From positions 385,450-449,449 of the forward strand of contig NMRA01000025.1 of NCBI GenBank assembly GCA_002633005.1: DNA of 64,000 nt, written 5' to 3'. Shown here one piece after another: positions 9,613 to 44,906 of this stretch. Origin of the DNA: Phoronis australis (lineage: Eukaryota; Animalia; Phoronida). Each line of letters opens with the position of its first letter. Position 1 is the first letter of the stretch. A program made the translations under genes and the position numbers. Below the pieces are notes generated by a model. That model was not told the origin of the DNA, ran no database searches, and saw only the letters and a program-made list of their open reading frames with translations.

Positions 9613-9882
9613 CTGAAACACAAATGTATAGAAGTTAACGACTCACTAAACATATTCAAGGTATTTCAAGGTCCAACCAAACTTAGCACAATGATCCACG
9701 GACAGATGTGATTATGTTCCACATTAAAACGGGAACAAATGTGAGCACTAATCAATTCCCAATTGAAGCTACACAAATCAAATCAAACAAGATGGGTCTT
9801 TTACAGCAATCATGCCTGCCAACAAGAGTTGAAACAGGAGAAATGCTGCAGTTAGTTGGAGCCCACACACACAATAGAAATC

Positions 9883-10040
9883 CAAATTTTAGGCATGGCT
9901 TCAACAGTAGGCCTACACTCAACAAATTTCAGGCATGGCTTCAACAGTAGGCCTACACTCTGCAAGTTATAGGCATGGCTTCAAGAGTAGGTCTATACTC
10001 TGCAAATTTTAGGCATGGCTTCAACTATACTCTGCAAATG
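9883..10040 (+). repeat. 40-bp tandem repeat, about 4 copies
   Basis: aggcatggct recurs at 9891, 9931, 9971 and 10011. Confidence 0.9.
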
Positions 10041-10140
10041 TTCTAGCATAAATTCCTGCATATACGTGTATGCTTCAAAGTTATCAATATAACTTTCTAG
10101 GAATTTATCTATATCGATGTTTCACGCTCAAAATACATAC

Positions 10141-10637: not shown

Positions 10638-10789
10638 CTGCAAGAACGTAAAATACAGTCTCATCTTCATCAGCTTTTAGCCACATTATTCCAAAGCTGT
10701 TACCAAGGTTACCATCAGACAAGTAGACTGTTAAATAGGCCAAGACTAAGGGAAGGGTCTGAGATCTCCCACAGCGAAATCATATATTT

Positions 10790-11250
10790 ACCCATGACAT
10801 CCATATGTGACATACATATGTGACATACAGCCAGATAAAGCTAATCTAAATCATTTGCCAAGTGGCAATAGCCTCTTGGCTTAAAGGTTAAAATGCTCGG
10901 GTCCTAAACAGGTTCAAATAACGGAGTCATCGAAATTTTCTACATTGGCGCCAAACAACGGAAGAACCCCACGACCAGATAGGGTGCCAGCACTCCTCTA
11001 ATGGGAGTCCCGAGTCACGCTCCAGCAACTACAATGGAAACCCAGAGTAGAAACTTGGAGGACCTGAGGGGACAGGCAACACATTTGATCCGTAGAAGGG
11101 AGAGGGGTGTTCTGACCCACGACTACCGGGAATGACGAACAGACAGATAACGCCTTTCTAAATCGCTTGCGAAGTGGCAGTTGCCTCTTGGCTGAACAGT
11201 TTAGACGGTCCCCTCACACACGTGCAACCTGGGTTGAAGCGCGGGCACCT
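10790..11250 (+). mobile_element. TRIM (miniature LTR retrotransposon) with tRNA-like LTRs: LTR - PBS - ~160 bp internal - PPT - LTR
   Basis: LTR1 ends gaaattttctaCA at 10944. PBS tggcgccaaac at 10946 is tRNA-Lys-like. PPT agaagggagagggg at 11094-11107. LTR2 starts TG at 11108 and is truncated near 11250. Both LTRs are homologous to the solo copies at 15595 and 16429. The left boundary is approximate. Confidence 0.75.
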
Positions 11251-11509
11251 TTAATCAGCCGCTTGATGAAACAATGAGAAGGTACACAACTGCAATCCAA
11301 TATGGTTGACCACCAGACAGTTCCGGAGTAAATCAAAGCATGTCAATCTTGGAGTATTTTATCTGCCACAGCAACACATCCACAGGTTGTACTCCAGATA
11401 TTCCTAACTCAATTCGCAGAATTCACGGCAAAGTGTCGTGGCAGACCTGTTCCATATACAAAAACTAATGCGCACGCTCATCAGGCTACTCACAACACCT
11501 ACATCAACT

Positions 11510-12751
11510 AACAAAAGCAACGCAGAGCGTTGAAATACGCCAACGAATGCATTGCAAATGGTGTGCTTTTAGGGTTATTAATTTTTATCATAAAAATGGC
11601 TACTAGATGGCGCAAAAACATACAATCTATCCAAAAACGGGAACATGCCTTATTTCAAAAAATCTGTCAAGGAACTTCAGAGAAACAACAGAAAACAGAA
11701 TAAAATGAAATTGCCACTAGTGAGCACAGTGTCCATTGGATCCACCTGAAAGTCGTCGTTTGTTGATATCTTGATATAAATACACTTACTAAATTTAGTA
11801 AAGATCCTGCAGTGGGTTATGGGCACAAACGGAGGCACCAAAGTAGTCAGTCACCATCATCAAAGGTCGTCTTCACACTGAGAACACATATGCCAATTTT
11901 CAAATGATTTGGTTGATAAAGGGGTGGACACCAAAAAACAAGATTTGAAAACAGCAAAAAATCAAATGGCCACTAGGTGGTGCAAAATACCTTGATTCCA
12001 TCCAAAAACAAGAAGATACACGTCATCACACCAACAGATGCCTATATTTAAAATTTCATGAAAATCTGTTACGGACCCTTGAAGATACCGAGAAACGTAA
12101 AAACTAAAATTGCCACTAGAAGCACAGCAGTAGTCATACCTGTCCGAAAGTTGTCGTCATCCGTAGTCAACATCATATAAATACATTTGCCAAATTAAGA
12201 AAAGATCATGCGAACAGTTTAGGAGATAGGCGCAACAAAAACAAAACTGCCACTAGGAGGCGCCACAGTAGTCAAAATCGGAAAATCATCGTCAACCATC
12301 CTCTTTATAGTAAGCACATACATGCCAATTTTCACAATCATGCTTTGAGCGGTTTGGTTGATAGAGGGGTGGAAGCAAAAAAAAAAACAGACTCAAAAAC
12401 CGTAAAAATGGTCACTAGGTGGCGCAAACTGCGTCGAATCCATCCGAAAACGGGAAAATAGTATCACCTCATTAATAGGTGCCTCCATACCAAATTCCAT
12501 GAAAATCCGTTCAGGACTTTTGAAGATATAAAGGTAAGCGTAAAATACTAAAATTGCCACTAGGGGGCACACCGGTAGTCGGACCCGTCCGAAAGTTCAC
12601 TCATGCCGTCCTATTCATGAATAGAACATATGTGCCTAATTTCATGAACGTATGTCAAAGGTTTTGGAGACAGAGCAGCGAACGCAGGACGCCGGACGGA
12701 CGGAGATGACAGCATAATGTGTCCACATACAAATATGTGGGTGCATAAAAA
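11510..12751 (-). mobile_element. HINE family A, apparently full-length copy in CPSF6 intron 1
   Basis: On minus: 5' ttttatgcacccacata-tttg-tatgtgg hairpin, (ccgt)n tract, ~140-150 bp internal repeats, 3' hairpin caacgc-tct-gcgttg then cttttgtt. T-rich ends, no TSD. Confidence 0.75.
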
Positions 12752-13287
12752 CAGCAACAGTAGAGGCAGAGTAAACGGAGAGGCTTTTGATGGTAATTCA
12801 CAGCGGTGTCAAGCTGATATTATGAGTTCGACATAGCGTGATCAGATCAAAAACATATAGTTCCCATTGATCTATAGTGTGACCTATTTTGTGACTGTCA
12901 TTCAATTAATTAAATCACAAGCATATGCTTCTGTGTTTGTACTTGATTTAGTAGGAAAGAACGAAATTCCAAGGCCCCTTGAAATGTTCACCTATTTTTC
13001 TTGTACCCAATCAGCATGCTCTGTAAGCAGTGTTCTCCACGACCAGTTTTGACTCGACACGGCAACGAGTTTAAATTTTGCCGCATCGAGTTTGGAGAAT
13101 GTGCGTTGAGTTTGAAAAGTGCCGCGACAAGTTATAACTTTGGCTGGGTTGGCACTTTTGCCCTCAAAATCAAAAATGAGGGTGAATTGGCCAACATCAG
13201 CCATAGTTCCTAACACATATATGACCTAAATTTTGTAATAGAGTGTAAATTATGGCTGAAAAAATCTAAGTGTAATGTTGCTGGTCT

Positions 13288-13514
13288 TAGTTGATATAAG
13301 CATTCAGGTGATGTTGTGAGTGGCCTGATGAACAGCCGCATTAGTTGATGTAAGCATTCTGGTGATGTTGTGAGTGACCTGATGAACAGCCGCGTTCGTT
13401 GATGTTAGCATTCTGGTGATGTTGTCAGTGGCCTGATGAACAGGCGCATCAGTTGATGTAAGCATTCTGGTGATGTTGTGAGTGGCCTGATGAACAGGCG
13501 CATCAGTTGATGTG
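13288..13514 (+). repeat. 54-bp tandem repeat, about 4 copies
   Basis: Unit gttgatgtaagcattctggtgatgttgtgagtggcctgatgaacaggcgcatca. Confidence 0.92.
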
Positions 13515-13757
13515 ACTGGAGCAGGTCGGACAACACATTTTTCCCATGAATAATGCCGATTGAATTAGGAAAACGTGGAGGTATGTATGGTATGTATTGG
13601 TTTCCATGTCAACAAATGTAACCAGGGAACGTGTTGCCATCGAAGATAAAATACGTGACGTAAATTACTTCCAGACTGAAGTGCTTCATGACAAGATGGA
13701 AGTGTTTGGTAGGTGAGAATATTGGACAGCAGTCGTGTACCTTTCTCTTGTCTACAG

Positions 13758-15347
13758 CAGGGCTTGCAATGACCCATGACAAAAAAGGGCAAATTTTTAC
13801 GGCCCTAAACACACATTTCAATCTAAACCACACCTCAACAGATCGAAAGTAAACATTATTTTCACAAGATGCCCTATTACTGTGCCGTGTTGGCAAAACG
13901 CACTCATCTTAAGCAGTACCTGACATCTATTTCAGCAAAAACAATGAAGGCAATTAGATGCAACAAGAAATATTTTTTAAAATTAAAATAAAGATAATGA
14001 TGAAAAAATTGCAAAGTGAGTAGCAGGAGCTTATTCTCATTTGCTGCAGGGAGACCAGTCCTATAAAATTATTTTCAATTCTTGTAATTACGATACAAAA
14101 TTACAAAAAAATTGAAAATCGATCCATAGATTATCTACAAAGCCTGAAATACATACATACTTAATTCCATCAAACAATTTAATTCCAACGCAAATGGAAA
14201 AAACTCAAGATGAAAACCTGTGGCTCATACCCCAACTGTTAGCATGGAAAAATGAAAGTCAAAAACAACATACTTTAAACTATAGAATGTATCAATCAAG
14301 TTGGCCAAACTTTTCAGTTACAAACAGTAATTACAGGACTTAATTGTTCCTAAGCCACGCTGGTGTAGAAGAAACTATGTGACAAGAAATAACTACCAGG
14401 ACACTGAAAATAGGCTGGCAGAATTTGCAAACAATGGCTTAGACCAATCGGATCATTCAGAATCTGTCACGTGATCACTTCTCTCGAACTGCAAAACTCC
14501 AGTCACAAAATAGAACACGAAAAATGTAAAAATAAATTGAAATACATAAAAGGCAATTTAAAACACATCTGCAGTGACGAAAATAGCACTTTGTATCCCG
14601 TTCGGCGGCACGTAGAAAATCGCACTCAGGCGGTCAGGCCACTGGCAGCCAACGGCAATGGGCGTGCATGGAGGATCAAACAAAAGAATTTCATACATCA
14701 CTCACATCCCCCGATTCCAATCCAACGAGTAACCGGTTACAGTTGAATTTCGTTTCAGGAAGCGTTGTTATTTCTAGTCTTTCATCATTTTCAGTCAGTC
14801 CTCCGACTCCAACTTAGTCCAAGGCGACTCGACCACGCACTGCGTAATTGTTCCTCTCTCAAAGTTTACAGAGCACAAACCTTGGTTTGTGAAAACATTA
14901 ACCGTTTCTTTTATCCACGAAATATTCAATCTACTCCATACTCCATGCATTTTTGACCGCAGAATCGCACTATTTGTCACCGCAATTTTATACCAAATTC
15001 AGACGCCATTGATGAACTATGCTATCCCAGGCACAGGCACTTGAATTTATCTGTTCCTCGATTGCCACTGATGTCACTCACTACTAAGAAAGCATGTTGT
15101 TTCTTATACATGGTTACGAGTCATCGCGAAATTCGAGCGCCTATGATCTGCAATTACAATGTTCGTGCTTCTGAAACATAAAGAGCAGTTTCCGGTTTTC
15201 GAGTTGTCGGCAACGCCGCAGTAAGAAACCAATTTGCCGCGATAATGTTATGGCAAATCCGATTTTTTTCCGCGGAAATATAATGAAAATATGCGAAGGG
15301 AATAAAAAAACAGAAATCCGCGTTTCCACGGAAAATTTCAAGCCTTG
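13758..15347. mobile_element. hAT-like non-autonomous element, long copy
   Basis: TIR CAGGGCTTGCAAT / ATTTCAAGCCTTG. Both ends are homologous to 15880-16407. Flanks ctacag/atatag match 4 of 6. Confidence 0.7.
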
Positions 15348-15594
15348 ATATAGTATCGATTCAAGTGGCTGTCAAGAGAGCCTGTGGTGGTCTTGCCATT
15401 GCCTACATTCAGAATAGAATTAGCAGTGATTAGAGATAATTTGGATCAATCCCTAAACACATGCTAAAGGTCTTTTAAATACAGGCAAATTTCTTGAAAA
15501 TTATTACAGAATTCGGAAAAGACCAGTGACAGTGGTGAAATTCCAAACTAGCCAATACTCAACTCAAACTATTAGAGGGTTGACCAACTAACAC

Positions 15595-15757
15595 TGTAGA
15601 AAATTTCAGTGTCTCCCGTGGGACATGAACCCAGGTTGCACGTGCGACGACCAGTTTTCTAAACCATAAGGTCAGGAGGCATTTGCCCCTTGGTAAGATG
15701 CTTACAGAGGCTATAACTGGCTGTGCATATCGTCACAACCGAAAGTCACATTTCACA
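15595..15757 (-). mobile_element. Solo LTR (163 bp) of the tRNA-containing TRIM
   Basis: TG...CA termini (tgtgaaa...ttctaca on minus). Flanked by a 4-bp direct repeat acac/acac. Confidence 0.75.
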
Positions 15758-15879
15758 ACACTACACCCATTCTGCGGATCAGGCGCACTCCCTGGCTCCC
15801 TGGCTTTTAGATCTCAGCAACGCCCTAGCATCCTGGAATTTGCCATCAGCGACGCTCTCTGTGAGGCCATTACTACCAG

Positions 15880-16407
15880 CAGGGCTTGGAATGACCAATG
15901 ACAAAAAACACGGAAACATTTACGGCCCAAAACAATGCGCGCTACCCAGCCCTGAAATAGTTGATGATGTGAACCTTTCGCCGACAAAAATAGGGACTAA
16001 AAAATAAGAAAAAAAGGAAGAAAAAAGAAAAAAAAAGTTACCACCATCAGTAGCATGCGTCTGCGTCCTTTTAGCTCGTCCGTCCGCTCCCACCCCTACA
16101 CATTTTTGGCTCCAGAGCCATAGCATTTGTCACCGCGGTTTACAATCACACGAGACCCCATTGAAAATCCCACCACCCTATCCCAGATGCCCCGGCAATG
16201 TTGACAATTTACGTTCCTCCGAAACATAAAGAGCAACTTCCGCTTTTCTAGGTGAACGTCGTCGGCAACGCCGCGGTAAGAAAGCAATTTGCCGCGGAAA
16301 TTTTATATCAAATCCGATCTTTTTTAAGCGGAATTATAATAAAATACGCGGACAGAACATTTGAAAAAAGCAGAAATCCGTGTTTCCGCGGAAAATTCCA
16401 AGCCTTG
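15880..16407. mobile_element. hAT-like non-autonomous element, short copy with 6-bp TSD
   Basis: TIR CAGGGCTTGGAAT / ATTCCAAGCCTTG, flanked by taccag on both sides. Confidence 0.78.
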
Positions 16408-16428
16408 TACCAGGTTGCCCCTAATCAA

Positions 16429-16592
16429 TGTAGAAAATTTCAGTGTCTCTGGTGGGACTTGAAACCCAGGTTGCACGTGTGACGACCAAGTGCCTAAACC
16501 ATTCGGCCAAGAGGCAATTGCCCCTTGGCAAGCAGCTTAGAGAGGCTTTATCTGACTATACATGTCGTCACAACCGGAAGTCAAGTTTCACA
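16429..16592 (-). mobile_element. Solo LTR (164 bp) of the tRNA-containing TRIM, best-preserved A/B boxes
   Basis: On minus: tgtgaaac...gcctctTGGCCGAATGGtttaggcac...GGGTTTCAAGTCCC...gaaattttctaca. No TSD seen. Confidence 0.75.
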
Positions 16593-16941
16593 ACTCCAAA
16601 CAATGAAAATGAAACTGTTTTGGGTAGAGTTCAGCAACACTACATCCTAGGACCTGAACTTGTACCTCGCTACAAAGCAAGACTTCGCGAGATCACGTGA
16701 AACATTGCCGTGTATTTTAAATAAGAACACATGATTTTGGCAAGATTTAGACGCGAGACAGACAGCTTCTAAACTCTACCCTGAACGCGATTCGTTGGCC
16801 GGGCTAGTTCAACAAGGAGTGTTCACTGAAATTCTGCGCACAATCGGTGATACCATAATAATGCTTTTTAATCAGCCACATCCTCAAAGAATGTATGTAG
16901 CGAATGAACAACATAATCTTCTATTAGAACTAGGATTCAAC

Positions 16942-18656: not shown

Positions 18657-20654
18657 GAGGCAGTCCATATAAAAACCACTAGATCTTCAAAAATCAGTCT
18701 ATACGTCAAAATTTAAAACAACTTCATTTTTTGTACATGGGTAGGTATCCTAACAAAAACCCAAATGTCAAATTTTGTGCACTCAATGACCCCTAATTTC
18801 GCCGCTTGAGCATGATAACACAAATTGGCACAATTGGGCATATTAGCCGTCTCAAAAATCGCATGTTTTCAGCAACAAAAATGAGTATCATACAAAACAG
18901 ATCAAAAACTATATTTTGGTGGCTGAAATAACCAACGTATACTGTGCATAATTCTGTGTCATTTATTAAAATCTGACAGGTTTGTGCTAGACAGGGGAGA
19001 TAATCCACAGACCACTTTTTGGGGCTAATTTTAGTGGCCATTTTTGTGACCTTCTTACTGCCATAAAACACCTTGTAGCATTGTGTGACGTTTTGAACAT
19101 ACAGTTAAAGAGTTAGTCTTGATGACTGAGCAATAAAAAGTCTTGCCTCACTTTAGTGAAAATTGTCTTGCAAAACTGTCTATTTTCATAGTTTGGAAAT
19201 GACGAGCAGAGTTTACAGACCAAACTTTTAGGCAAGAAGTCTGCTTTAAATAGTAACAGAAACCAAGTCTAAACTCTTTCAAATGAAAACAAGATGTTTT
19301 CCGGGTTTATTACGCGGCTAGCATCAAAACTGAACCCGATAACCTTTGCCCACTGAGGGAGTCAGTTGAGGTTAAGCTTGAGGATATATAAAAATGTATG
19401 TGTAACCCTCTTGTATTCTTTCATTTCTTTTACATTATCAGGTTAATTTAAACACTCTGTAGAACTTTTAAATGGAAATAAATGCCTTTAAGATTAAACG
19501 AGTAAGAATTGATATTTGTAATGACTGGTTTTGAGAGAGGCAAGTGCATTTTAAAAAGACAAAATGGCGGACGATGTCGATGGGCCTTCATGTTCCTTTA
19601 GAGTTTATTCTGCAAACAATCCGATCACAAAAGCTTTGTGCTTTAGTGAGTTACATGTATGTCAAAGACACCACTGAACATTTGAGATACAGGAAATTAC
19701 CTCACAAAGCAAGGCCTGTGAAACAGGACCAGTCGTGGAAGAGTCAGGTAATGCTGGATGTTACCACTCTGCTCCTCTCCTCCTGAACGTAGCAGCCTTG
19801 TCAAATTCTACCGGTATTTCTGTTTCGAGATATGACTTTAGTGAAAGTAAGAATGGAAAACATCTCTGTGATCGCAAGATCGCTCCACTCAAACAACATG
19901 CGAAGTATTTTGTAGCCGAAAGTAATAATATCATAAACTTTCTGGATTTGAAAGAAGCATTATTTTCCAGTGGCCGCGTGAAGGGATGTTATGTGTATGC
20001 ATGTTCAATCAATGCAACAAAGTCTTTTCCAAAATACTCAGTTCCTGGTATAAGAACATTCCCAAATTCCCACTATTCCACCCAAGGAATTCGCGTGTAG
20101 AAATCATTCCATGTGGGTGACGGTAAGTTCTTATAAATACTGAGAAAATGGGAAACCTATTTCTCTAAAACACACTAACATCTATAGACATGGCGGATTT
20201 TCAACACCAAGAGTTAATTAAGGTTGGCACTGTATCTAGTGAAGTGCCTCAACAAAAGTTCCCTTGTACCCAGCAAGGTTACTCGAATTTTTTTTTTTGC
20301 TACAGACGCAGAACTAGGTCAGTTTTGTCTCACAAATTCAAAACGTACAAATTTAAAAATGGATTTTGAAAGTTATGCCATTAATTTATTCAGCCATTTT
20401 CCTTTCAATTCGTATCATTCATTTGTTTTGACCTTACCACACATGCTAGTAAAATGCATTCAAACATGCCTACTTCGACACCCAATTTTGTTTCAAAATG
20501 GAGGTACTGGTCATAAAAAGAAAAATAATGAATGAAAATTTTTAAAAAGTGAAGTTTTTCTACATCTCAACAAACCAAACTCATGTGCTATGATTCAAAA
20601 AAAATGGGATTTTGGGTATAGACTCTACCTGTTGGTTTTTATATGGAGTCACTC
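18657..20654 (+). mobile_element. Sola3-type DNA transposon, internally deleted
   Basis: TTAA TSD (18653-56 and 20655-58), GAG...CTC termini, TIR core ccatataaaaacca. Transposase fragment at 19735-20100 reads S(G)NAGCYH...YDFSESKNGKHLCDRKIAPLK. Confidence 0.8.
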
Positions 20655-20934: not shown

Positions 20935-21719
20935 TGTCAGAATATAGACTAACACTGTTTTTATTTGTATTGCTGTGTTTTGTTATTCTGTTTGATTGGC
21001 ATGACCCCTGAGTTAAGTACAATGATGATGTAATTTGTTTACTACAAAATAGTGTGGAATTTTCTAGAAGACTGAAGCCAGAACAGTGATGATGTAATTT
21101 GTTTACTACAGTATAGTGTGGAACTTTCTAGAAAACTCTAGCATGACACAGTGATTAATGCAGTCTGGAATATTCTAGAGACTAGTATATGTTTGTAGAA
21201 TGATTGAGTAGATTCAGGAAAGTTCTAGGATGTGCTTGAATTGATGAAAAGTTCCAGAACAATGCACTAGGCTATAAATAAACAAGCACGGATTTCTGTT
21301 AGTCAGATCAAGTCAGTTCAAAAGAAGATAAAGTCGGAAGATCAAGTCAGTTCAAGAGAGATCAAGCAAGTTCAAGAAAGTTAATCAGGAGAACTACAGT
21401 TGAGTTGCAGTGAAGATAATCAGCAGATACAGCGATAGTCAATAGAGAACCAGCTATAGAGACAGCAGGTTATTAAACCGACGAGTGTAACAGTTGCTGA
21501 ACGTGTCTCAGAAGTTCATCACAAGTCAAGGCTTTGCAGCACTGGCTGGAGCATAAACAGACATTACGTCGGACGTTTTGTTTGAGTAGGCTTGTGAACA
21601 TACGGTCGGGATTAATAAAGGATTACCTCGAACCAGTCTTCAGTCAATCTTCGCACCGAAAGCTATTAGCACCGGTCTGTAACAACCTGCGCCCACCCAC
21701 ACACGGGGAAAACGTGACA
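20935..21719 (+). repeat. 5' LTR (785 bp)
   Basis: TGTCA...TGACA termini, TATAAATA at 21273, AATAAA at 21614. Direct repeat of 26295-26876. Confidence 0.93.
21056..21280 (+). promoter_or_regulatory. Heat-shock-element array plus TATA box in 5' LTR U3
   Basis: Perfect nGAAnnTTCnnGAAn at 21056-70 and 21120-34, nTTCnnGAAnnTTCn at 21212-26, near-perfect arrays near 21163 and 21248, TATAAATA at 21273-80. Confidence 0.75.
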
Positions 21720-21721
21720 AT

Positions 21722-21739
21722 TGGCGAGCACGCCAGTAG
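21722..21739 (+). other. Primer-binding site, tRNA-Arg(ACG)-like
   Basis: tggcgagcacgccagtag lies 2 nt after the LTR. It matches 15/18 to TGGCGAGCCAGCCAGGAG, the complement of the vertebrate tRNA-Arg(ACG) 3' end as recalled. Confidence 0.65.
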
Positions 21740-23390
21740 CCTACTGACGGTAACAAGGTGTGATAAAGTGGACTGTTGGAATGAGCAACTCCCTATGGAG
21801 ACGAGATCTCAACTAAGGGAGTTGATGGCCCTCAGACAAGAAATAGGTCTGCAGCGAGACGACCTCAGACAGTTTGTGGAGAAACAACAAGCTGAGGCGC
21901 GTGCTGAGGCTGAGGCTGAGGCAGAGGAGAGAAGGCAAGCTCGTGACGCTGAGGAGAGAAAGCAAGCTCGTGAGGATGAGGAGAGAAAGCAAGCTTGGGA
22001 GGCTGAAGAAAGAAGGCAAGCCCGCGAAGCCGAACAGCAGATGGAGAGAGAGTGGAACATGAGAGGGCGCTAGCGGCACTCAAGGCTGAACAAGTAGCAG
22101 CTGGGGTAGCCATGCTAGACCAACAGGGGGCGTGAAACCGAAGCTACCCAAGTTTGACGAAAAGCAGGATGATATGGACAACTTCCTGGAAAAGTTTGAA
22201 AGATACACAGAGAGCCAGGGTTGGACCCAAAGTTAATGGGCAATTAGTCTCAGTCCCCTCTTAATAGGTAAGGGTTTGCAGGTTTACACCAGCCTACCGA
22301 TGGCAGATGCACTGGACTATGCTACACTCAAGAGAGCCTTACAGAAGCGGTATGAGCTGACGGAGGAGGGAAGCGAGGGCTGAGAGGGGTGAGACAGCTT
22401 ACCAGTTTGTGGCCCGCATACAGCGCTACCTAGACAGGTGGATAGACATGTCCCACTGTGGCAAAGATTTTACTGAGTTAAGAGACCTGTTAGTGCGTGA
22501 GCAGTACGTGAACACCTGTACTAAGGACTTGGCTTTGTTCCTGCGAGAGCAGACACCCAAGTCTGTTCCAGAGATGGTGAGCTTAGCAGAAAGACATATT
22601 GAGGCCCATGGACTGGATATAACGAGCACTCAGTCGAAGAAGTCCCTAGAACGACACGTCAAGACAGACAACCAGAGAGTCGACCAAAAGAAAACAGACC
22701 TCGCAGAGGAAAGGTGTTTCTTATGTCACAAAACTGGACACCTGGCTAGAGACAGTCGGAAGCGGACACAAGGGATGCAACACCAGAAGTCAGCAGCGGT
22801 CAACCACCGAGATTCCCAGTATAAGGAGGACTCGATGAAGTGTACTAAACCTGGACGCGCCGTCTGAAGGAGGGGTATGTTGGCACGAAGAAGGTCTCAC
22901 TATTGAGAGACACAGGCTGCACGACCGTTGTGGTTCGGTCCAGTCTAGTCGATCAGGAGATATGACCTGCCGGAAGTGGTCATGTGAATTGGCGGACTCT
23001 ACCAAAAAGTGGCTGCCTGTCGCCAGGATCAACATCAAGACACCGTACTACACGGAAGAAGTGTTTGCGATGTGCATGGAGCGTCCAGTGGCCGATTTGA
23101 TTATCGGGAACGTACCTGATGCCTTGAACCCAGGGGATGTTGAGCGACAGCAGAGAGCAACAACTGCCAACGAAGACAATATAGGCAATGGCCTTTTGGA
23201 GGATCCGAAAGATGACTCTCAGAAGGGTACTTCTTCCCATGAGGAAAATCCAGTGTCCTCAACTCTACAGGGAGAAGAGGTGACAGACATGTCGGTAGAA
23301 ACAGATCCTGATGAATCCAGCAGGGAAGCGGTAGCAGTGACTACCAGTGCTCAAGTAGAGTGATAAAAAGCGGACATTAAGCCGTTAGCT

Positions 23391-24635
23391 GTGTCTCCGA
23401 CTATACAAGAGGTGGTACTAAAGCAGTTTAAAGAAGCCCAGCATGAAGATTCATCAATGAAAAAGTTGTGGGTGCAAGCTGAAGCCAAAGTTCAGCGACA
23501 GACCAAAGACAAGGGGTCATACGTGATGGAGATTCAGAGAGGATTACTTTATCAGATATTCAAGAAGAAAGACGGTGACGAGGTGAAACAAGTTGTTGTG
23601 CCGAGCAGTTTACGGAAGTCCGTGATGAGGCTTGCTCATGAGTCTATACTCGGTGGACACCTCGGTGTTAGGAAGACAACTGACCGTATCACCAGCAACT
23701 TCTATTGGCCAGGAGTGGCATCAGAATTGACCAGACTCTGCAAATCATGCGACATCTGCCAGAAGACAATCCCGAGAGGTCGAGTGACCAAGGTACCCCT
23801 GGGATAGATGCCTTTGATGGGGGAGCCTTTCAAAAGAATCGCGATCGATCTGATTGGCCCTATAGTTCCAGCTTCCGACAAAGGAAACAGATACATTCTC
23901 ACGGTGGTAGATTTCGCTACCGGGTATCCAGAAGCAGTGGCCCTACCGAAGATTGAGACAGGGCGTGTGGCTGAAGCATTACTAGAAGTCTTCAGTAGAG
24001 TAGGGTTCCCGCGAGAGATCCTGAGTGATCGTGGAACGCAGTTCACAGCGGAACTAATGAAGGAGGTCTGCAGGCTTGTGAGTGCAAAGCAGCTGTACAC
24101 GACCCCTTACAATCCACGCTGTAACGAGCTCTTTGAGAGAATCACCGGTGTTTTAAAGGCCATGCTGAAGAAAATGTGTCAAGAAAGACCAAAGGATTGG
24201 GACCGGTATCTGCCAGCTGTCCTGTTTGCTTACCAGGAAGTTCCGCAATCAAGCACAGGATTTTCACCCTTTGAGTTGTTATACGGCAGGGCAGTAAAGC
24301 AAATACTGAGCGAACTCTGGGCAGGGGAAGACAGCAATGACGTCCGTAATACTTACCAGTGTGTCTTCGAGCTCAGGAACCGCTTAGAGGAGACCTACGA
24401 GTTGACTAGAAAAAGTTTGTACAATGCACAAGGTATTCTCAAGCATTACTACGACAAGAAGACCAGAGATAGGCAGTTTCAAGTGGGACAAAGAGTGTTA
24501 GTATTACTTCACACAGACCACAATAAGCTTACACTGCAATGGAAGGGGCCATACGAAGTTACAGAAAAAGTCAGCCGTATGGACTACCGCATCAATATGA
24601 ACGGCAAGATTAAGATCTTCCGTGCCAATCTGTAG
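23391..24635 (+). pseudogene. Retrotransposon integrase (zinc-binding, core and GPY/F), disrupted
   Basis: AHESILGGHLG...CKSCDIC; IAIDLIGP; ILSDRGTQF; WKGPY. Stop near 23805. Confidence 0.92.
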
Positions 24636-24820
24636 AAGGCGTATCACGAACGCGAGACTGATAACATCACAGTCAAAGATGAACCGATCGGCGTTGATTG
24701 AAGAGTGTGTGACTGACGACGCGACTCTTCTTGATGAAGGCGGTTTAGAGCTTCTGCCGATGGTTCACAACGATACCTGTAAGGATGTAAAGCTGTTTGA
24801 TACCTTGACGTCCGAGCAGC

Positions 24821-26180
24821 GTGAACAGGCACTACAGCTCTTACGTTGCTACCGTGGTCAGTGGTATCTTCACCAATCAGCCTGGAGAGACCGATTTGGC
24901 CAGCCACGTCATCGAATTGACGACAGAACAACCAGTGAGAGTGAGGCTACGTCAGATGCTGTACACTACTCAGGAACTAGTGAAGAAGGAAGTGCAAGAG
25001 ATGTTAAAGATGAACATAACTGAGCCTTCCACTTCGGCTTACAGTTCTCCTGTAGTTTTGGTGGCTAAAAAGGACGGAACCACAAGATTCTGTGTTGACT
25101 ACCGACGGCTAAATGCAGTGACTAAGTTTGACAACGAGCCTATGGGTAACCCAGAAGCTATTATGGCTAATCTGCATGGTCAACGTTTCTTCTAGAAGTT
25201 CGACTTTATGAAGGGCTACTGGCAAAATCCCATGGATGAAGCTAGTAAAGAGAAAACCGCATTTGTGACTCCAGGAGGCTGTTACCAGTTCCGCAGAATG
25301 CCGTTTGGCTTGGTGAATTCAGCGGCCACGTTCAACAGGATGATGAGAAGAATGCTAGCAGGCTCAGGTAATATCTAGCAGTATGTCGACGATGTGCTAC
25401 TCCACACTGTCACCTGGGAGGAACATTTCCATACCCTGAGAGACCTGTTTCAGAGAGTTAAACAAACCGGCTTGACATTAAGACCGTCAAAGTGCAGCAC
25501 TGGATGTCCAGAGGTGGAGTTCCTTGGACATGAGGTTGGGACGAAAAAGATAGCTATGGAAGACCAGAAGCTCATGAAGATTCAGGATGCACCAACGCCA
25601 TCTACTAAGACGGAAGTACGGTCATTCCTAGGACTTACAGGGTACCACCGAAAGTTTGTGCCTAACTATGCACAGATAGCCACACCGTTGACGGATTTGC
25701 TGAAGAAGGGCCAACCAAAGAAAGTCGTGTGGACCGATATTCATGAACAGGCATTCAAGAAGTTAAAGCAAGCGCTTTGAAGTAGCCCGATCCTACGAGT
25801 ACCAGACTTCACACCGAGATTCATCGTCAGGACGGAAGTATCTAACGATGGTTTAGGGGCAGTTTTACTGCAGGAGTTTGACGATGGAATATTCCCCATT
25901 GCATATGCCAGCCAGAATCTTAAAGAAAGCGAGCGGTATTACTTTACAGAAGAGAAAGAGTGTTTAGCGATAGTGTTTGCTGTGAAACGTTTTCAGTTTT
26001 ATCTCTACGGGACAGAATTCGTGGTGCAAACAGACCACAAACCATTGGTATATATTCAGCGTTGTAAGATTGAAAGCCCCAGGGTTATGCGATGGGCTAT
26101 AGCGCTGCTGAATTATAAATTCCGTGAGGAGGATAACCCTCGAAAATGTAAGGTCGGTCAGACTATTTAAGTCGACTAGC
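24821..26180 (+). pseudogene. Reverse transcriptase and RNase H, disrupted
   Basis: SAYSSPVVLVAKKDGTTRFCVDYRRLN; MPFGL; YVDD; VRSFLGLTGY; TDHKPL. In-frame stops. Confidence 0.93.
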
Positions 26181-26294
26181 AGAGCCTGCAAGTCAGGGAG
26201 CACTTTAGCGGCGGATATAGTAGATTATATATATATGCCACATGATTTTGTGTTAGACAATTATAGAGTAATTTTCTCTTTGGCAGGGGTGTGT

Positions 26295-26876
26295 TGTCAG
26301 AATATAGACTGACATTGTTTTCATTTGTATTACTTTGTTTTGTTATTCTGTTTGATTGGCATGACACCTGAGTTAACTACAGTGATGATGTAATTTGTTT
26401 ACTACAAAATAGTGTGGAACTTTCTAGAAGACTGAGGCCAGAACAGTGATGATGTAATTTGTTTACTACAGTACATGTATATAGTGTGGAACTTTCTAGA
26501 AAACTCTAGCATGACAGTGATTAATGCAGTCTGGAATATTCTAGAGACTAGTATATGTTTGTAGAATGGTTGGGTAGATTCAGGAAAGTTCTAGAATGTG
26601 CTTGAATTGATGAAAAGCTCCAGAACAATGCATTAGGCTATAAATACACAAGCACGGGTTTGTGTTAGTCAGATCAAATCAGTTCAAGAGCAGATCAAGT
26701 CGGGAGATCAAGTCAGTTCAAGAGAGATCAAGTTAGTTCAAGAAAGTTAATCAGGAGAACTACAGTTGAGTTGCAGTGAAGATAATCAGCAGTTACAGCG
26801 ATAGTCAATAGAGAGCCAGCTATAGAGACAGCAGATTATTGAATCGACGAGTGTAACACTTGCTGAACGTGTCTCA
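26295..26876 (+). repeat. 3' LTR, truncated (lacks the last ~210 nt including AATAAA); HSE array and TATA retained
   Basis: Homology to the 5' LTR stops at gtgtctca (26876). HSEs at 26416, 26488 and 26578 (4 perfect units). TATAAATA at 26639. Confidence 0.92.
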
Positions 26877-27200: not shown

Positions 27201-28874
27201 ACACCAAACCCAGTTTTGGCCACCATTTCAATGTTGACAAGTATCGCGATTTCCGTTCCCCGACTGACAAGACCGTAATAATGTAAAAACGTTATATACA
27301 TGTACATGCCTGCACAAAATTCGCGTAGAATGAGTCTTAAGATGGTTTCCAAAATTAAATCTGCGCCGAATGTGTCCATCAATTGATCAGTCGGAACAAA
27401 TACATCACGGCTACCTATCAGCAACGGTTTCCCCTCGTTTGTCCATTTCCGCTCACTTAATTGATCCGCCGTGCAATTAAATTTCATACAGCGCTGAGTA
27501 GGCCTATCACTTTCAAGTCAACGTGCAATCAACTGACAACGAAGGCAACTTCTGCCGAATCGATTTCGAGATTATTCAGTAACAGTTATTTTCTTGAAAA
27601 TTCTCCACCCAGGTAGAAGTGAATGCCTGTACCTCCCGTACACCTTACGAAAAGTTAGTTAAGACAAAAGTGTTTAAAACCTATTTTTCAATGATTTTCA
27701 CGTTGCATGACACATGTTTTTTGAAAAAAATGTCTGTTCTTTTAGATACTAAATGTCTGTTGAAACGCAGAACTTTTACGTCTGCCAACTCAGTGATGTA
27801 TGAGGTACTGCTTCACGTTTCTGAAATTTGTATAATGTGGCTGGTCTACATGAAATTAATTTTAAATTGTGTGAAACTTTAAGAATTTCAAAAACTTGAA
27901 CTTTTTTGAATTTAGTGTCATTTATACAGGAATGCATTATTAGATGATGATATTTGCCCCTCAAAATCCATTTCTACGTCAGAGCGAACGATGACAGGCT
28001 TCGAACAAGTTTTAGATGACATGGAACAACGTAGTCGGATGCATCATTAAGAGCAGATGTTCGCACTAACTCAAAAAAAATCTGAAGTTGTTTAATCCTT
28101 GTTTTTTACAATCTTTGGTGTTGACTTTAAATTGTTTAGAATTGAAGGTATTCAAGACTTTGAGTTTTTAAAGTTTTAAAATGCTTTCAATGAGCAGGTC
28201 AATTTTTAATTGACGAAATAAACTTTGATGAAATACAACGGCTTTTGTGGAAAAAGCAGTTAAATCTACCGCGATTATTAATACGAAATGCAAGGACATG
28301 TACAGTAGCTTTTGGAGATATTTTTACCGGGAACAGAATTCAATTTGAATTTTTACCGGTTTAGTTAGCAAACTTGTGTCCAGGAACTTTATATCTTAGC
28401 GAATTTTTCATGTTGGTTTTTGGTCGTTGTGATGATAGCGGTGATTTTGGTGGTGATAATGGTGATGGGGGTGTTGATGATGGTGGTAGTAGCTGTGGCG
28501 ATGAACATGTTTTGGATCATTAATTTACCATAAGAATAGCAATGACAAATCGATATTTTTTCAAAACTTTCCCATGAGTAAAATCAATACAAAATTTATT
28601 TACCTTCAATAATGTTAGAGGAAGTTGTACCACGGCTGACACCGGGAGCGTTTCCTAAACCATATTAATCGATTTGTTTGCGTACCAAAACTGCACCCAC
28701 ATTTGACTAATTGACGCACATCTTTCTTTACAAAAAAAGAAAATATAATCCTCTGTTTGACTATTCGACATGTTAGATTTCTAGGTAGAAAAAGGGCAAA
28801 GGGTTTTCTATTCAGCTCACGAAAAAAATTGTATTCTGACACGCTGCCGCAGATTGATCATACGTTACGGCAAA

Positions 28875-29190
28875 ATGGTCACTTTGTACTTTGAGAACAT
28901 TGTATCTATCGTTTTGCTTCTAAATAAGTTTCTTTTGAATTCAATTTCTTACTGTGAAGAAGGATATTTTGAATCCTTGGACAGATATAAAGGTAAACGA
29001 TATTCAAGAAATTCTACGCACGCGTACACCGCCGCCATGAAATCTGCTTGTTCTCAGTTATGCCTTTTACAAAAACAAAAATGTTCATTTTTCAACTACA
29101 ACGAAGATTTGAAAACATGCGAACTGTTTTTCGGAGACTGGGACAACGGGCTTGTTTTGCCTTCAGATTCTTGGTCTATAACACACAGAG
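28875..29190 (+). CDS. Secreted PAN/Apple + 3x LamG-like protein, exon 1 (signal peptide and PAN domain)
   Basis: aaaATGG start, hydrophobic N-terminus, C-x3-C...C-x2-FNY...C-x-L pattern (CSQLC...CSFFNYNEDLKTCELF). gtgagt donor, phase 1. Confidence 0.8.
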
Positions 29191-31020
29191 GTGAGTACAA
29201 CCAATTGTCCTATATTTTACACGTTTTCGGCTTGCTAGTATACTACGCATTTCAGGTAAAGAGGGACAGCTTGTGTATCGATGACTGGTTTCCATGGCAC
29301 TCCAATGAACCTTGTTTATATGTTGTACTTTAGGACGATGACCATTTGTACAACAAAGAATTTATATCTTATCATGCATGTTAGTTTGAGGTTGAATCAT
29401 AGCGGAAAACCACGCGTTAATCCATATAAGAAGTTTCAGAATTATCTCACCGCCGTGGATTCAGTATTCGATGTCAGTTTCATTTCCTTGACACTGAACA
29501 TGATCCATCCATATCTTTCCACGGTCTCGTCCAAATGCGCTGTATTCCTATAGTCTTTCGGCATTTGCATACCCTAGGACAAAGCAGAGATTTTAGACAT
29601 AACTTCGCAAACGACTATGGAACTACATCACGGGTCATGAAGTTTGGGTAACCTGGGGACGTGTCGTCTAGTAGACAGTAATTCGCATTTTCCCAATACC
29701 TTTCGCATCATTGTGGGATCTTAACAGCGACATGTATGGGCCTAGCTGAAATAATTATACATGTTCATATGTTTTCATCAAAACACCAACAAAGTGAACT
29801 TTTATGAACTGAATGTTGATATTCAGTGCACGCTTTTAAACTACGATTTTTTCATAACGGCACGTATCTCTGCAAAACTTTGTAACGACGTTTAATGTAA
29901 TAAAGGCCAATCTTCGTCACGTGATCAATGTTTTAGACCCTAAAAACTTTTGCATCAACAGCTAAGTTGGAGGTTACAGCAAGTCGACGTGAAATGGACA
30001 TTACGGCAATTTCCCGTTGATCCCAACTTGTTCGATTCTATAGCCCAACAACAAGTTGGGAAGATGACCCCTGCAGCCAATATCTTACACGACCGATTAA
30101 CTTCATTCTGGCATTATGGATGGAGGGCCAGCTCTCTTGTTCTATAATTGCGCTAATCTCCGGTGAGATCGTATCTAGCCTGACTGTGCTGTACTGTTAA
30201 AAAATTAAGTTATGACATATTTGAACATATATCAATAGCATTTCTGAATTTCTCGTCAAATACTAATCATGTTTAGTTTTTAAATCACCAAAATCGCCCA
30301 AGTACAACCGAAGTTAAGACAATCTATTCTTTCCGGACATACCAATTCGCCGCTCTAGGTTTGATACGCGGTCTGCAATAAGCCTGGTAGATAACTGACC
30401 TGCCTGTTGTCGTACCAGACAATAGAATGTTCTTGGCAGTTACCAAAGGAGTTAGCTGTTATAATAGGCTCACAACTCTCAACGTTTGGTAAAGTCACTG
30501 AACGGGAGAACGCCGTTATGAAATGTATTACATCTATGTTTAGAGCTAGACAACAAATGACTTGATGATTGTTTCAAGCCACACTGAGTTCTCGTGAGTT
30601 GTGTCCTGAAACATTCAGAGAGGTAATCATGTTTGCACCTCTAATGCCGCAGCGTCTTTTTTTACATTTGTACCAAACCATTGAGGAAACAAGTGAGCAG
30701 TACATTTGATTATCTATTTATTGTTACACAGTGTTTAATTTTCATTAAGCGGGTTAAAAACCATCTAAATAACAAGTACTGACAAATTAAGCTCGCAGTA
30801 CAGACAACACAACGAGTAAAACAGCACAAAATCTGCAAAGTCGTGTGTAAAGTTTAACGCTTCTTCCTCTTTTTAATATCAGTACATGTACATCATAAAC
30901 AACAACGTCCATAATATACGGGACGATATTATAAAATACAGGAAACCCATATTTATTGGGTATAGAATCATTTAAGTATGTAATTTTTAACCCAATGTAC
31001 TGTATCGCAAACATATTTAA

Positions 31021-32333
31021 AGGCGAAGACAGCCTTTTTTCATGTCATTTTTAGCAAAAATAGGGTTCGTTGATTATCCCAGACATATTTTTCACTTATT
31101 TACAGCTTTTCGTAATTTAATTAATTACTCGTCGTCTACTCCGGAAGTGACGTTTTGGGGGAGGCAAGAATTTCGCCCCAATTTCTTTTCATAGAGTCTG
31201 ACTGTGAGAGCAGTCGAGTCAGTCATTGTTCTACCTCGGTTGTAATAAGTTCGGTCGTCGTTTGCTTTCGTTGACGAGTCAGTCAACATGCCACGCTGTT
31301 GATGCCTACCGAGATGTACTCATTATCGTCTCACGTACAGAGGAAAAACTGTCCCACTTGCCTGAGTGTCCCGCGACACACCGGCTCCCGATGGTGACTT
31401 GAGTACCCAAACTGCTTACATCCAGCCGTGCGACTCCCTCGTTACACACGTGGCACCTTCTAAATAGCTCCAATACAAGTCCACAATAAACTTATCAAAC
31501 TTAGGTTCACCGATCTGTTCACTGGATGACGAACTGTCCTTTTCACTGGATGTCAAACTGGGCCTGTATTCACTCCTACTCAACATCGTTGCAGGGCTGC
31601 TTACAGGCTCTGGGCTAAAGACAACAGCACACGGGGAATCACTGCTAGTTCCTGGAATTGCACGCTATGGGGTACGTTCGGAGGCATGGGTGACAGTAGA
31701 TGAAGTGCCTCCAGTCACTGTTTATAGTGGCTACAGCTCGCGAGGCTTCTCGCTTCAAAAACGCACTTCTCGGGGGTGGCGATTAGGCACTTGGCTGCCG
31801 GGAATCAACAGCGACGATATGGAACCCTTCTTAATTCAGGCGTTGTTTCGCAGGGACCTTCATCAAGTCAGCGTACATATCTCTGTCGTAATCTGACGGA
31901 TGAAAATGCTTCCCACTGCTTTGTACGTTGCGTGAATGGGTAGCGCTACGTTCTTCACTCGAACGAGCTAGCCAATTACGGCGAATTGTGTCATCCTTCG
32001 GAAAGCGATGCAAGGTACCCAAAAAGCGCGTGTGAGACGATAACGATAACGCAGCAACAGCGTGGCATGTTGACTGACTCGTAAACAAAAGCAAACGACG
32101 ACAGAACTTATCACATCCGAGGTAGAACAATGACTGACTTGACAGCTCTCACAGTCTGACTATATGAAAAGAAATTGGCGCGAAATTCTTGCCTCCCAAA
32201 ATGACACTTCCTGAGTAGAGGGCGAGAAATTAATCAAATTGCGAAAAGCTGTAATTAAGTGAAACATATGTCTGGGACAACCAACAGACCTTATTTTTGT
32301 TAAAAGTGACATAAAAAAAGGTTGCCTTCGCCT
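31021..32333. mobile_element. Kolobok-type non-autonomous element with THAP fragment
   Basis: TTAA TSD at both ends, AGG...CCT termini, ~280-bp TIRs. Minus-strand MPRCC...LHRFPKD...W...KHF THAP remnant. Confidence 0.8.
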
Positions 32334-32683
32334 TTAAGTCTTGTGAGCACGCCATCTGTGGTGGGCTGACTTGCGAAGTATTCAGTCTTGCATGAAGAAA
32401 GAGCAACGGGAAGGACAAGAATACAATCATTCGCGCACTAATTCGCTGCCATTGAATAACTAAGTTTATGTCTACACGTACATTAACATAGGCCGTCTAT
32501 TAACAGTATTTTTATCCCTTGAGTAAAATTGCATTACAATAACGTGATCCAGAACGCATACATGTAGTTTTCTTCTTTAAACATTACGCCGCTTAACTGG
32601 AATATTTGATATCACTAAGCACGACAGTGGAGAAACTAGGAAGTATAAGATTATTAAATCAGGTAAAAATACGGTTAGTTCAT

Positions 32684-40688: not shown

Positions 40689-40729
40689 TTAACATAAGCG
40701 TAGTAAGTGACTGTATATATTACTTTTAG

Positions 40730-41353
40730 CTTACAAGCTGACGCAAATTACACGTTCATCGACGGCTGTATGGCCTTGTACTTAGATGGCAGCGGAGACT
40801 GCGCCGACGTGTCCCCGGTACCCAACATTTTCTCTCGCAGCTACACGTTAGGAGCATCTATTCGACTGGCAGCAATTGACACGGATAATGCAATACTTCA
40901 AGACTGGTCGAGCCCTCGCCAATTTCGGTTGTATGTCAACTCTGCAAACAAGGTCGTAGTGCAGATAAAAAAGAACGATGCACCTGATGAGAATTTGCTG
41001 AACGTTTCATCTTCTGGGGTGGTCACAGCCAACAAATGGTATGACATCGCCTTCTCTAGAAATGTTGACACCGGAGCCTACGCCCTTTACGTAAACTCTC
41101 TTCAAGTAGCAAATGGATCTGTGACGAGTAAGGAAACTCAGAAGGCAAACAATCATTCATCATGGGAGATCGGCTACAATAAAAGGCAAATGGGGCACTT
41201 TTTACATGGCTATATCCGCAACGTCTTCGTAAACTACGGTGTTTTGTCACTGCCAGAAATTAAAGCCATTCTACCACCGCCCCCACTTAAACCGACGACG
41301 ATGTTCCTCAAACTGGATGGAAACAACCCGGTTAATGCGCAATACCCTATCAA
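40730..41353 (+). CDS. PAN-LamG gene, exon 3 (LamG/ConA-like domain 1)
   Basis: ttttag acceptor, gtaagt donor, 624 nt, phase 2-2. ALYLDG...WYDIAF...LYVN...IG...GYIRNV motifs. Confidence 0.88.
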
Positions 41354-41662
41354 GTAAGTGGTGTTCGAACGTAATCACTGTAAATTAATGCACTTTGGCA
41401 TAAGTTTGAATTTGATTATTGTTGCTTTAGTGACTGCGTGACTCATCAGATTTGAACTTCACCTGAGTGAAACGATGACATGTTCTAGTGTCGATCAAAA
41501 TTCTAGGACTGGTATTTCAACTGTTTTATTAGAAAAACAACATTTGTAAAGTATCGTCTGTCTAGGTTGATACGTGTGTACGTACATACGTTCTGATAGC
41601 TATGTTCGTACGAGTCCCCGGCGTAATATACGGATGTCACCACGGCCTGATACAACATGTCC

Positions 41663-43900: not shown

Positions 43901-44285
43901 ACCAGTACGATGAGTTAATCTACTTAATGTTAATTAACTTTATATTTAATTAACTTTCTATTTATTCGGTTTGCTTAGCCAGAAAACTAAGTAAGCGAAC
44001 GGACGAACCTCCATCAAACACAAAAGAAAATGTTGGATACTTGCTCAGTGTACATACTTAGCTGCTTTGTTGCACGATAGTGTATGAGAATTTACCAATT
44101 ACGCTGCCCATAAACCAGAAGGTTTGAGTGATTTCGGAAACTCGGCGACATGACCAACTGGAATGCTTAATAAAACCTGGGCCCAACAAACGAAGGCTGT
44201 CTCCGACATATTATGATCAATCGTCTGTTGGCGAACAAACAATGGTAAATTGTAGCACCCAAGATTAAAAACCTGTGTTGTCTAG

Positions 44286-44906
44286 TTTACAGGGCAATAC
44301 TTCATATGCCTTCATTGATGGTTGCACAGCGCTGTATATGGACGGGAGTGGTGACTTTGCTGATGTTTTCGCGGTACCCACAATATCATCCCAAAGCTAC
44401 ACAATGGGTGTGTCAGTACGACTGACAAAGAAAAACATTGGTCAATCGCTTTTTCAGGACTGGAGTGATACCCTACGTCACTTCCGGCTGTTTATTTCCA
44501 GTAACAATAGAGTTGTGATGCAAATCCAGAAAAAACATGATGTAAGATTGCTGTATGTTGCGTCATCTAAGAAAGTGAGAATCAACAAATGGTCCGACAT
44601 TGCCTTTACAAGAAATTTTGATGACGGGAACTTTGCCTTGTACTTAAATTCGGTGCTAGTGGGGAATGGAACATCGGGAGCGATGAAGAGTCACGTGCCA
44701 AACAACCATACGTCGTGGCAGATTGGTTACAAAAAACTTCCCATGGAGAGTTTCTTACATGGTTACATCCGTAATGTCTTTGTTACTTACGGGGTTTTGT
44801 CAGTGCCGGAAATCCGGGACTTAATGCAACCACCTCCGGTCAAATCGACGACAATGTTCCTGAAACTGGACGGCACAGAACCTGAGCACGCACAATATTC
44901 CATCGA
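44286..44906 (+). CDS. PAN-LamG gene, exon 4 (LamG-like domain 2; tandem duplicate of exon 3)
   Basis: tctag acceptor, gtaagt donor, 621 nt, phase 2-2. Collinear with exon 3. Confidence 0.88.

What the first reader, a model, noticed from the sequence alone, without database searches (positions are those of the whole stretch)
10790..16592. Miniature LTR retrotransposon whose LTRs contain a tRNA-like Pol III promoter
Seen: a ~164-bp TG...CA unit occurs four times in CPSF6 intron 1. Two copies enclose a tRNA-Lys-like PBS (10946), a non-coding ~160-bp core and a polypurine tract (11094-11107), which is a complete TRIM layout. Two are solo LTRs (15595-15757 with an acac TSD, and 16429-16592). Inside the LTR are an A box TGGCCGAATGG and a B-box-like GGGTTTCAAGTCCC with tRNA-like spacing. 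Established: plant Cassandra TRIMs carry 5S rRNA in their LTRs. From memory, tRNA-bearing TRIMs called Ajax have been reported in lophotrochozoans, so this may be a member or a new family. Inference: a Pol III-driven LTR parasite that looks like a SINE but uses LTR-element enzymes. One solo LTR lies about 350 bp from CPSF6 exon 1 on the same strand.
Basis: partly seen in the sequence, partly recalled or inferred. Interest (0 to 1): 0.74.

Follow-up and report, generated by a model that had tools for sequence, protein, structure and literature searches.

The report
Decayed Helenus-type tRNA-bearing mini retrotransposons
Inside the first intron of an animal's CPSF6 gene lie one old, gene-less mini retrotransposon and likely a second, whose end repeats carry a tRNA look-alike that likely served as a promoter; the type was described in 2024 as Helenus, so this is likely a new family of a known kind.

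Summary
Real, but a known kind. Four related ~164-bp LTR-like units lie in CPSF6 intron 1. Element 1 (~10796-11257, +) has the TRIM layout: LTR, tRNA-Lys-type primer site (10946), non-coding core, polypurine tract (11094-11107), LTR. Its LTRs are only 67% alike and have lost the B box, so it is likely dead. The two 'solo' LTRs are probably not solos. The unit at 15595-15757 is directly preceded by a homologue of element 1's core end, the only such match in the window. The pair is likely a second element whose core was split by a 528-bp DNA-transposon-like insert, so the 'acac' TSD is doubtful. Only 16429-16592 keeps a tRNA-like A box, B box and partial cloverleaf; ARAGORN and Rfam do not score it. 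The tRNA-bearing group is Helenus (Kojima 2024, PMC10886601); Ajax carries 5S rRNA. No published family matched by motif search and by eye, so this is likely a new family. The host looks lophotrochozoan by CPSF6; the phylum is unresolved. Pol III activity, the partner element and any effect on CPSF6 are untested. This scan has noted Helenus-type elements before in other genomes.

The parts
10796..10944 (+). Element 1, 5' LTR, decayed: 5' end unrecognisable, T-arm/B box deleted, 3' end (TTTTCTACA) intact; start approximate
   Evidence: local score 65 against the 3' LTR; best of 1000 shuffles 25
10946..10956 (+). Primer-binding site, tRNA-Lys(CTT) type; 10 of 11 bases complementary to the tRNA end drawn in Fig. 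S2 of Kojima 2024; same variant as Helenus-5_PiIm
10945..11110 (+). Element 1 non-coding core, 163-166 bp depending on where the 3' LTR starts
11094..11107 (+). Polypurine tract, 14 purines
11108..11257 (+). Element 1, 3' LTR, decayed (start 11108 or 11111; A and B boxes mutated; deletion near the 3' end)
16429..16592 (-). LTR B, best-kept copy; likely the 5' LTR of element 2 (start 16592 or 16595)
16443..16516 (-). tRNA-like unit in LTR B: A box from 16509, B-box-like motif with one extra T, partial cloverleaf with GTC at the anticodon position; a T4 run follows near the LTR end
   Evidence: not detected
16408..16428 (-). 21 bp after LTR B: likely 5' stub of element 2's core; no recognisable PBS
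15880..16407 (.). 528-bp DNA-transposon-like insert with short inverted ends (12 of 14 bases), flanked by a 6-bp direct repeat; a longer relative lies at 13759-15347
15758..15879 (-). 3' part of element 2's core; multi-copy in the genome; its last 27 bases are homologous to the end of core 1 and hold a decayed PPT
   Evidence: (row 15822)
15595..15757 (-). LTR A, a 3' LTR rather than a solo; A box degenerate, B box mutated at the invariant A
10638..16941 (-). CPSF6 intron 1, the host interval

Best explanation
[quoted passage not shown] Shown: the LTR-PBS-core-PPT-LTR layout, A and B boxes with a partial cloverleaf in one LTR, a second core-end/LTR junction, and many related LTR sequences in the genome. 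Inferred mechanism: TFIIIC would bind the boxes in the 5' LTR, and Pol III would start at the tRNA-like unit (about LTR base 77). It would read through the 4-T run at the LTR end some of the time, cross the core and stop at the same run in the 3' LTR. That gives an RNA of about 385-415 nt with the tRNA-like unit (about 83 nt) at both ends as the R repeat. A host tRNA-Lys would prime at the PBS, the PPT would prime the second strand, and a Gypsy integrase would insert the DNA with a 4-bp duplication. Element 1 is likely dead; only LTR B might still bind TFIIIC.
For: Layout and motifs. The four LTRs split as two pairs: 8 sites group A+B against the two LTRs of element 1, versus 0 and 2 for the other splits, of 132 gap-free columns. 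The end of core 1 matches one other place among 127,978 window positions, directly 5' of LTR A. LTR B is the best tRNA-like score in the window (26 of 30: 16 of 20 pairs, 10 of 10 invariant bases; 1 of 15 shuffled windows reached 26), and one acceptor pair changes on both sides between B and A (1 of 19 pairs). Multi-copy: 39 and 43 contigs in runs X1 and X2 (one sample) show the family base at 11171, 20 and 23 at 10870, 28 and 34 at 15822 in the second core. Published animal Helenus match in size, Lys-type PBS and TG...CA ends, and Gypsy is the proposed mobiliser. By eye they also share a short palindrome just before box A, CCCAC just after the PBS, and a 14-of-15-base stretch before the PPT with Helenus-5_PeMa.
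Against: ARAGORN and Rfam (E up to 10) see no tRNA in any copy, and the five tRNA-sized segments fold no better than shuffles (z 0.24 to 0.92). The cloverleaf and box patterns were written with LTR B in view. No clean TSD exists for any element: 3 of 4 at best for element 2, none checkable for element 1. Element 2 has no recognisable PBS. The middles of the two cores are barely alike (23 of 1000 shuffles did as well). The full layout could not be shown outside this window because no genome is held. The 4-T run in the 5' LTR lies before the PBS, so read-through must be assumed.
Confidence: 0.85

Rival explanations
1. Same element type, but A and B are not the two LTRs of one element: they come from a local duplication of one 5'-truncated copy (core end plus 3' LTR) with its flank, or are what remains of a tandem array.
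For: The 17-18 bases after A and after B are alike (49 of 42,663 sampled windows score as well; BLAST extends to 15578/16413). A copy of the same DNA-transposon-like repeat follows each LTR in the same orientation, at 79% identity against 84% for the LTRs. A stretch upstream of B weakly resembles the second core (17 of 1000 shuffles, one of 8 such tests). No PBS follows B. Tandem arrays are common in TRIMs (PMC6934838; PMC13570524).
Against: The 528-bp insert is flanked by a 6-bp direct repeat, which implies that the 21 bp after B and the core piece before A were once contiguous. The remaining core of about 137 bp fits Helenus sizes. The two repeat copies have unlike right flanks, and the wider LTR flanks are not alike (217 and 390 of 500 shuffles).
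Confidence: 0.3
2. An ordinary Pol II-driven TRIM in which the tRNA likeness is chance or a non-functional relic.
For: No ARAGORN or Rfam score. The boxes are intact in only 1 of 4 copies; 6 of 100 shuffled windows gave an A/B-box hit and 1 of 15 an equal cloverleaf score.
Against: Those shuffle rates are for 128 kb, whereas the hit falls inside the LTR at the place where Helenus carries it. The T-arm-to-end segment is the best-kept part between A and B (36 of 39, against 54 of 67 in the 5' part). The paper itself finds most Helenus units to be non-functional tRNAs.
Confidence: 0.1
3. A tRNA-derived SINE, with the PBS and PPT as coincidences.
For: A and B boxes are present, and many short dispersed copies exist.
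Against: The tRNA-like unit is in the 3' half of the repeat, not at its head. No A-rich or repeat tail follows A or B. The unit ends in CA directly before a PBS, and two copies follow homologous core ends.
Confidence: 0.03

Closest known systems
Animal Helenus TRIMs (TRIMp3; Kojima 2024, PMC10886601), especially the tRNA-Lys-primed families of bivalves, nemerteans and coelacanth (Helenus-1_MyGa, -5_PiIm, -1_LiLo, -1_NGe, LTR1_LCh)
   Same: Non-coding element of about 460-500 bp; 164-bp TG...CA LTR with a tRNA-like unit in its 3' half followed by a T run; palindrome before box A; Lys(CTT)-type PBS followed by CCCAC; PPT (comparisons by eye).
   Different: No listed family has this LTR sequence: 5 of 6 window motifs and the A-box motif have no hit in the supplement (line breaks can hide some). 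Helenus-2_NGe has the same sizes (163/165) but another PBS and LTR. These copies are old and decayed, and the host may be outside the six listed phyla.
Ajax (nemertean TRIMp3; PMC10886601)
   Same: Small-RNA promoter inside the LTR of a TRIM; similar size (LTR 154-163 bp).
   Different: Ajax carries part of 5S rRNA, has a tRNA-Leu PBS and a 5-bp TSD; no 5S match here.
Cassandra (plant TRIM; known here only through Kojima's description)
   Same: Concept of a Pol III-driven TRIM; per Kojima the only member with shown Pol III transcripts.
   Different: 5S rRNA unit, land plants, 565-860 bp.
biv-TRIM (PMC6934838)
   Same: Animal TRIM with solo and tandem forms.
   Different: Terminal repeats 202-218 bp, core 77-80 bp, no canonical PBS; no tRNA unit in the repeats reported in the part read.

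Membership tests
Helenus | Short non-coding element with two LTRs (311-1263 bp) | tested here: met
   Element 1 about 462 bp; longest stop-free stretch 71 codons; LTR homology far above shuffles
Helenus | tRNA-like unit in the LTR with box A (TRGCY...YGG) and box B (GGTTC) | tested here: met
   Box A intact in LTR B; box B has one extra T in B and an intact GGTTC in A; top cloverleaf score of the window. Not scored by ARAGORN or Rfam; decayed in 3 of 4 copies
Helenus | PBS complementary to a tRNA 3' end | tested here: met
   Element 1: 10 of 11 to tRNA-Lys(CTT) as drawn in Fig. S2. Element 2: none of the Fig. S2 types recognisable
Helenus | PPT before the 3' LTR | tested here: met
   14 purines at 11094-11107; decayed homologue before LTR A
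Helenus | 4-bp TSD (animal families) | tested here: inconclusive
   Element 2: 3 of 4 or 2 of 4 depending on the LTR start; LTR A alone 4 of 4 but one side is core sequence; element 1 not checkable
Helenus | Interspersed multi-copy family with the full layout at several loci | tested here: inconclusive
   LTR and second-core positions are covered by 20-43 contigs per run; linkage into full elements elsewhere not visible; no genome held
Helenus | Pol III transcription (proposed, not shown, in the paper) | not testable with these tools
   Only ordinary RNA-seq; low, mixed-strand reads from other copies
Helenus | Identity with a named published family | tested here: not met
   Motif searches over the whole supplement and reading of parts 1, 5, 6, 7, 9, 10, 11 of 11; Repbase itself not available
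Ajax / Cassandra | 5S rRNA-derived sequence in the LTR | tested here: not met
   No 5S match at E up to 10
tRNA-derived SINE (SINE2) | tRNA head at the 5' end and an A-rich or repeat tail | tested here: not met
   Unit lies in the 3' half; no tail after A or B; CA end abuts a PBS
Retrozyme | Self-cleaving ribozyme in the LTR | tested here: not met
   No ribozyme family at E up to 10 in Rfam 15; a decayed or undescribed fold would be missed

The most novel reading that the evidence does not exclude
This is a Helenus lineage in an animal phylum outside the six reported (annelid-like by CPSF6), with two subfamilies, and LTR B is still a working Pol III promoter 350 bp inside CPSF6 intron 1. It would make a short tRNA-like RNA or act as a TFIIIC site that tunes this essential 3'-end-processing gene, the first functional read-out of any Helenus promoter.
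Probability: 0.07. Interest if true: 0.6.

Novelty: new member of a known kind. Interest (0 to 1): 0.24.

Why it matters
Modestly. It adds a likely new family, perhaps a new host phylum (about even odds, my estimate), to a group described in one 2024 paper, and it supports an old, shared origin of animal Helenus. The open question in that paper, whether the tRNA-like unit really drives Pol III transcription, needs young copies; these decayed ones are poor material. For annotation, the two 'solo LTRs' are better read as parts of a second, interrupted element.

Tried and rejected
No whole genome is held, so no genome-wide tally of ends, TSDs or partners was possible. Pattern scans for other copies: 0 in metagenome contigs, 0 in prokaryote genomes, 1 in viral contigs that matches only at the motif. 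The LTR-end/PBS pattern gave 28 metagenome loci; 0 of 28 has an upstream B box, an internal direct repeat, or likeness beyond the pattern apart from one 13-base match. No RNA holder was listed for the stretch, which is no evidence either way. Helenus-2_NGe, tempting by size, was rejected on sequence. The neighbouring Gypsy at 20935-26876 was rejected as the direct partner: its apparent PBS differs, and core 1 matches it no better than shuffles (19 and 21 against a shuffle mean of 23). A twister or hammerhead ribozyme, suggested by earlier scan notes on other DNA, was not found. Host phylum: a LamG exon search found nothing, and CPSF6 exons give a near tie among a cephalopod, two annelids and a bivalve, with a millipede close behind. 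A 167-bp LTR starting 3 bases further out was considered (20 and 21 of 31 in register); once A is seen as a 3' LTR those bases can equally be core, so the boundary stays open. A direct alignment to the paper's consensus sequences was not run; those comparisons are by eye or by motif search.
Full report
Observation. Four related units exist. LTR B (16429-16592, -) hits LTR A (15595-15757, -) at 84% (137 of 163), 11141-11235 at E 7e-16 and 10826-10889 at E 3e-8; no other unit appears in the window. They lie in intron 1 of CPSF6 on the - strand. Named CPSF6 proteins map to exons at 17004-16942, about 10637-10560, 10233-10141, 9612-9508 and 5818-5657. RNA reads cover the bins of exons 2-4 on one strand (depth 10-22) and are absent from the two single-copy intron bins at 9617-10050.

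Element 1 (+ strand). The 5' LTR ends in CA at 10944. A PBS follows at 10946, 10 of 11 bases complementary to the tRNA-Lys(CTT) end drawn in Fig. S2 of Kojima 2024 and the only match of its pattern in the window. Then come a non-coding core, 14 purines at 11094-11107 and the 3' LTR. The LTRs are clearly homologous (score 65, best of 1000 shuffles 25) but only 93 of 139 bases identical. The outer ends are damaged, so no TSD can be read. The B box is deleted in one LTR and mutated in the other. This copy is old and likely dead.

The 'solo' LTRs. The last 28 bases of core 1 match one other place among 127,978 window positions: the 27 bases directly 5' of LTR A, 20 of 28 identical, with a decayed PPT. 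That core piece is itself repeated in the genome: 28 and 34 contigs show another base at 15822. So A is a 3' LTR. B lies in the same orientation 671 bp upstream; 528 bp of the gap is a repeat with short inverted ends and a 6-bp direct repeat on both sides, leaving about 137 bp of core. The four LTRs split 8:0:2 into A+B and the pair of element 1. The flanks of the whole B-to-A unit match 3 of 4. I read this as a second element (about 60%, my estimate). A local duplication or array remnant remains possible (about 30%), because no PBS follows B, the bases after A and after B are weakly alike, and a second copy of the repeat follows A. The 'acac' TSD is 4 of 4, but its left copy is core sequence.

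tRNA-like unit. LTR B has an A box at 16509 and a B-box-like motif 44 nt on, the only pair found by my pattern (6 of 100 shuffled windows gave one). A cloverleaf scan ranks it first in the window at 26 of 30, reached by 1 of 15 shuffled windows; A and the two LTRs of element 1 score 22, 18 and 17. Both patterns were written with B in view, and the invariant positions are recalled, not from a call. A hand-drawn cloverleaf pairs 16 of 19 in B and 13 of 19 in A, with one change on both sides. ARAGORN and Rfam report nothing, and the tRNA-sized segments fold no better than shuffles. It is a promoter-like relic, not a tRNA gene.

Copies elsewhere. In runs X1 and X2 (one sample), 20-43 contigs per run show the family base at two LTR positions of element 1, with summed depth about 28 and about 67-69 times the single-copy depth (the tool warns this is no copy number). 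At 15654 in LTR A only 1 and 3 contigs differ. RNA reads on the LTRs are few, lie on both strands and carry other copies' bases (9 of 9 at 11171, 20 of 20 at 15654, first mate on +, run X5); no start or end falls in an LTR. Public collections gave no relatives.

Mechanism. The layout is shown; the rest follows from LTR-retrotransposon biology as set out in Kojima 2024 or is my inference. Pol III would start at about LTR base 77 and read through the T4 run at bases 156-159 of the 5' LTR. It would stop at the same run in the 3' LTR, giving about 385-415 nt with the tRNA-like unit as the R repeat. tRNA-Lys priming, PPT priming and Gypsy integration would follow. The need for read-through is the weakest step. 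The Gypsy relic at 20935-26876 (integrase before RT) has another apparent PBS and no likeness to core 1, so it is not the obvious partner.

Comparison with what is known. [quoted passage not shown] I read main-text parts 1-5 of 6 and supplement parts 1, 5, 6, 7, 9, 10 and 11 of 11, and ran three searches over the whole supplement; parts 2-4 and 8 were searched only. By eye the element shares several traits with Lys-primed animal families: the PBS plus CCCAC, a palindrome before box A, a T-arm nearly identical to LTR1_LCh, and 14 of 15 bases before the PPT with Helenus-5_PeMa. No listed family matches it. Other papers: PMC6934838 (abstract and first part of Results), PMC12859917 and PMC13570524 (passages), others as search listings only; the Cassandra paper of 2008 was not held. 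Searches for later or wider reports found none beyond citations, but the library lacks most subscription journals and Repbase.

Host. The best named CPSF6 matches are a cephalopod, Capitella, Owenia and Ruditapes, nearly tied, with a millipede close behind. That suggests a lophotrochozoan; the phylum is open. An earlier scan note calls another piece of this genome probably echinoderm, which I could neither support nor exclude.

Earlier scan notes. 81 findings in at least 17 genomes hold the Helenus/TRIM/tRNA words, including a decayed copy in an apparent annelid. None resembles this sequence. They are unchecked leads and add no support.

Verdict. A real, decayed, likely new family of a published kind: new member of a known kind, interest 0.24.

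Noticed in passing
window 11490-12750; relatives at 1041-1720 and 55053-56429: Very high-copy non-coding repeat built of ~430-bp internal units, with a GGAC microsatellite and a hairpin near one end (Helentron/HINE-like by recall). The units carry CTCF-like motifs (recalled pattern; 6 matches in the window, all inside these copies). Thousands of RNA reads map to it, mostly on one strand.
   Followed up: partly
window 20935-26876 (+): Broken Gypsy element with ~580-bp aligned LTR parts about 95% alike, a SCAN-like gag domain and integrase upstream of RT and RNase H (Gmr1-like order by recall); stops and frameshifts in all parts.
   Followed up: partly
window 13759-15347 and 15880-16407: Two copies, 1.6 kb and 0.53 kb, of a high-copy non-autonomous DNA-transposon-like repeat with short inverted ends; the short one is flanked by a 6-bp direct repeat.
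   Followed up: partly
window 13287-13513: 54-bp minisatellite, 4.2 copies, 91% matches, in the same intron.
   Followed up: no
window 28785-29330, 40707-41354, 44269-44907 (+): Exons with a PAN domain and Laminin_G_3 domains; the LamG exon found no longer relative at E 0.001.
   Followed up: partly
window 19678-20100 (+): 140-codon stretch that reads like a relic of a transposon-derived protein; not searched.
   Followed up: no
PMC10886601 supplement, Helenus-2_SyJa and Helenus-2_SyUm LTRs: By eye these published LTRs contain hammerhead-ribozyme core motifs (recalled) downstream of the tRNA-like unit; the main-text parts I read do not mention this.
   Followed up: no
window 31017-32337: Long inverted-repeat element with arms of about 290 bp, 86-93% complementary.
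   Followed up: no
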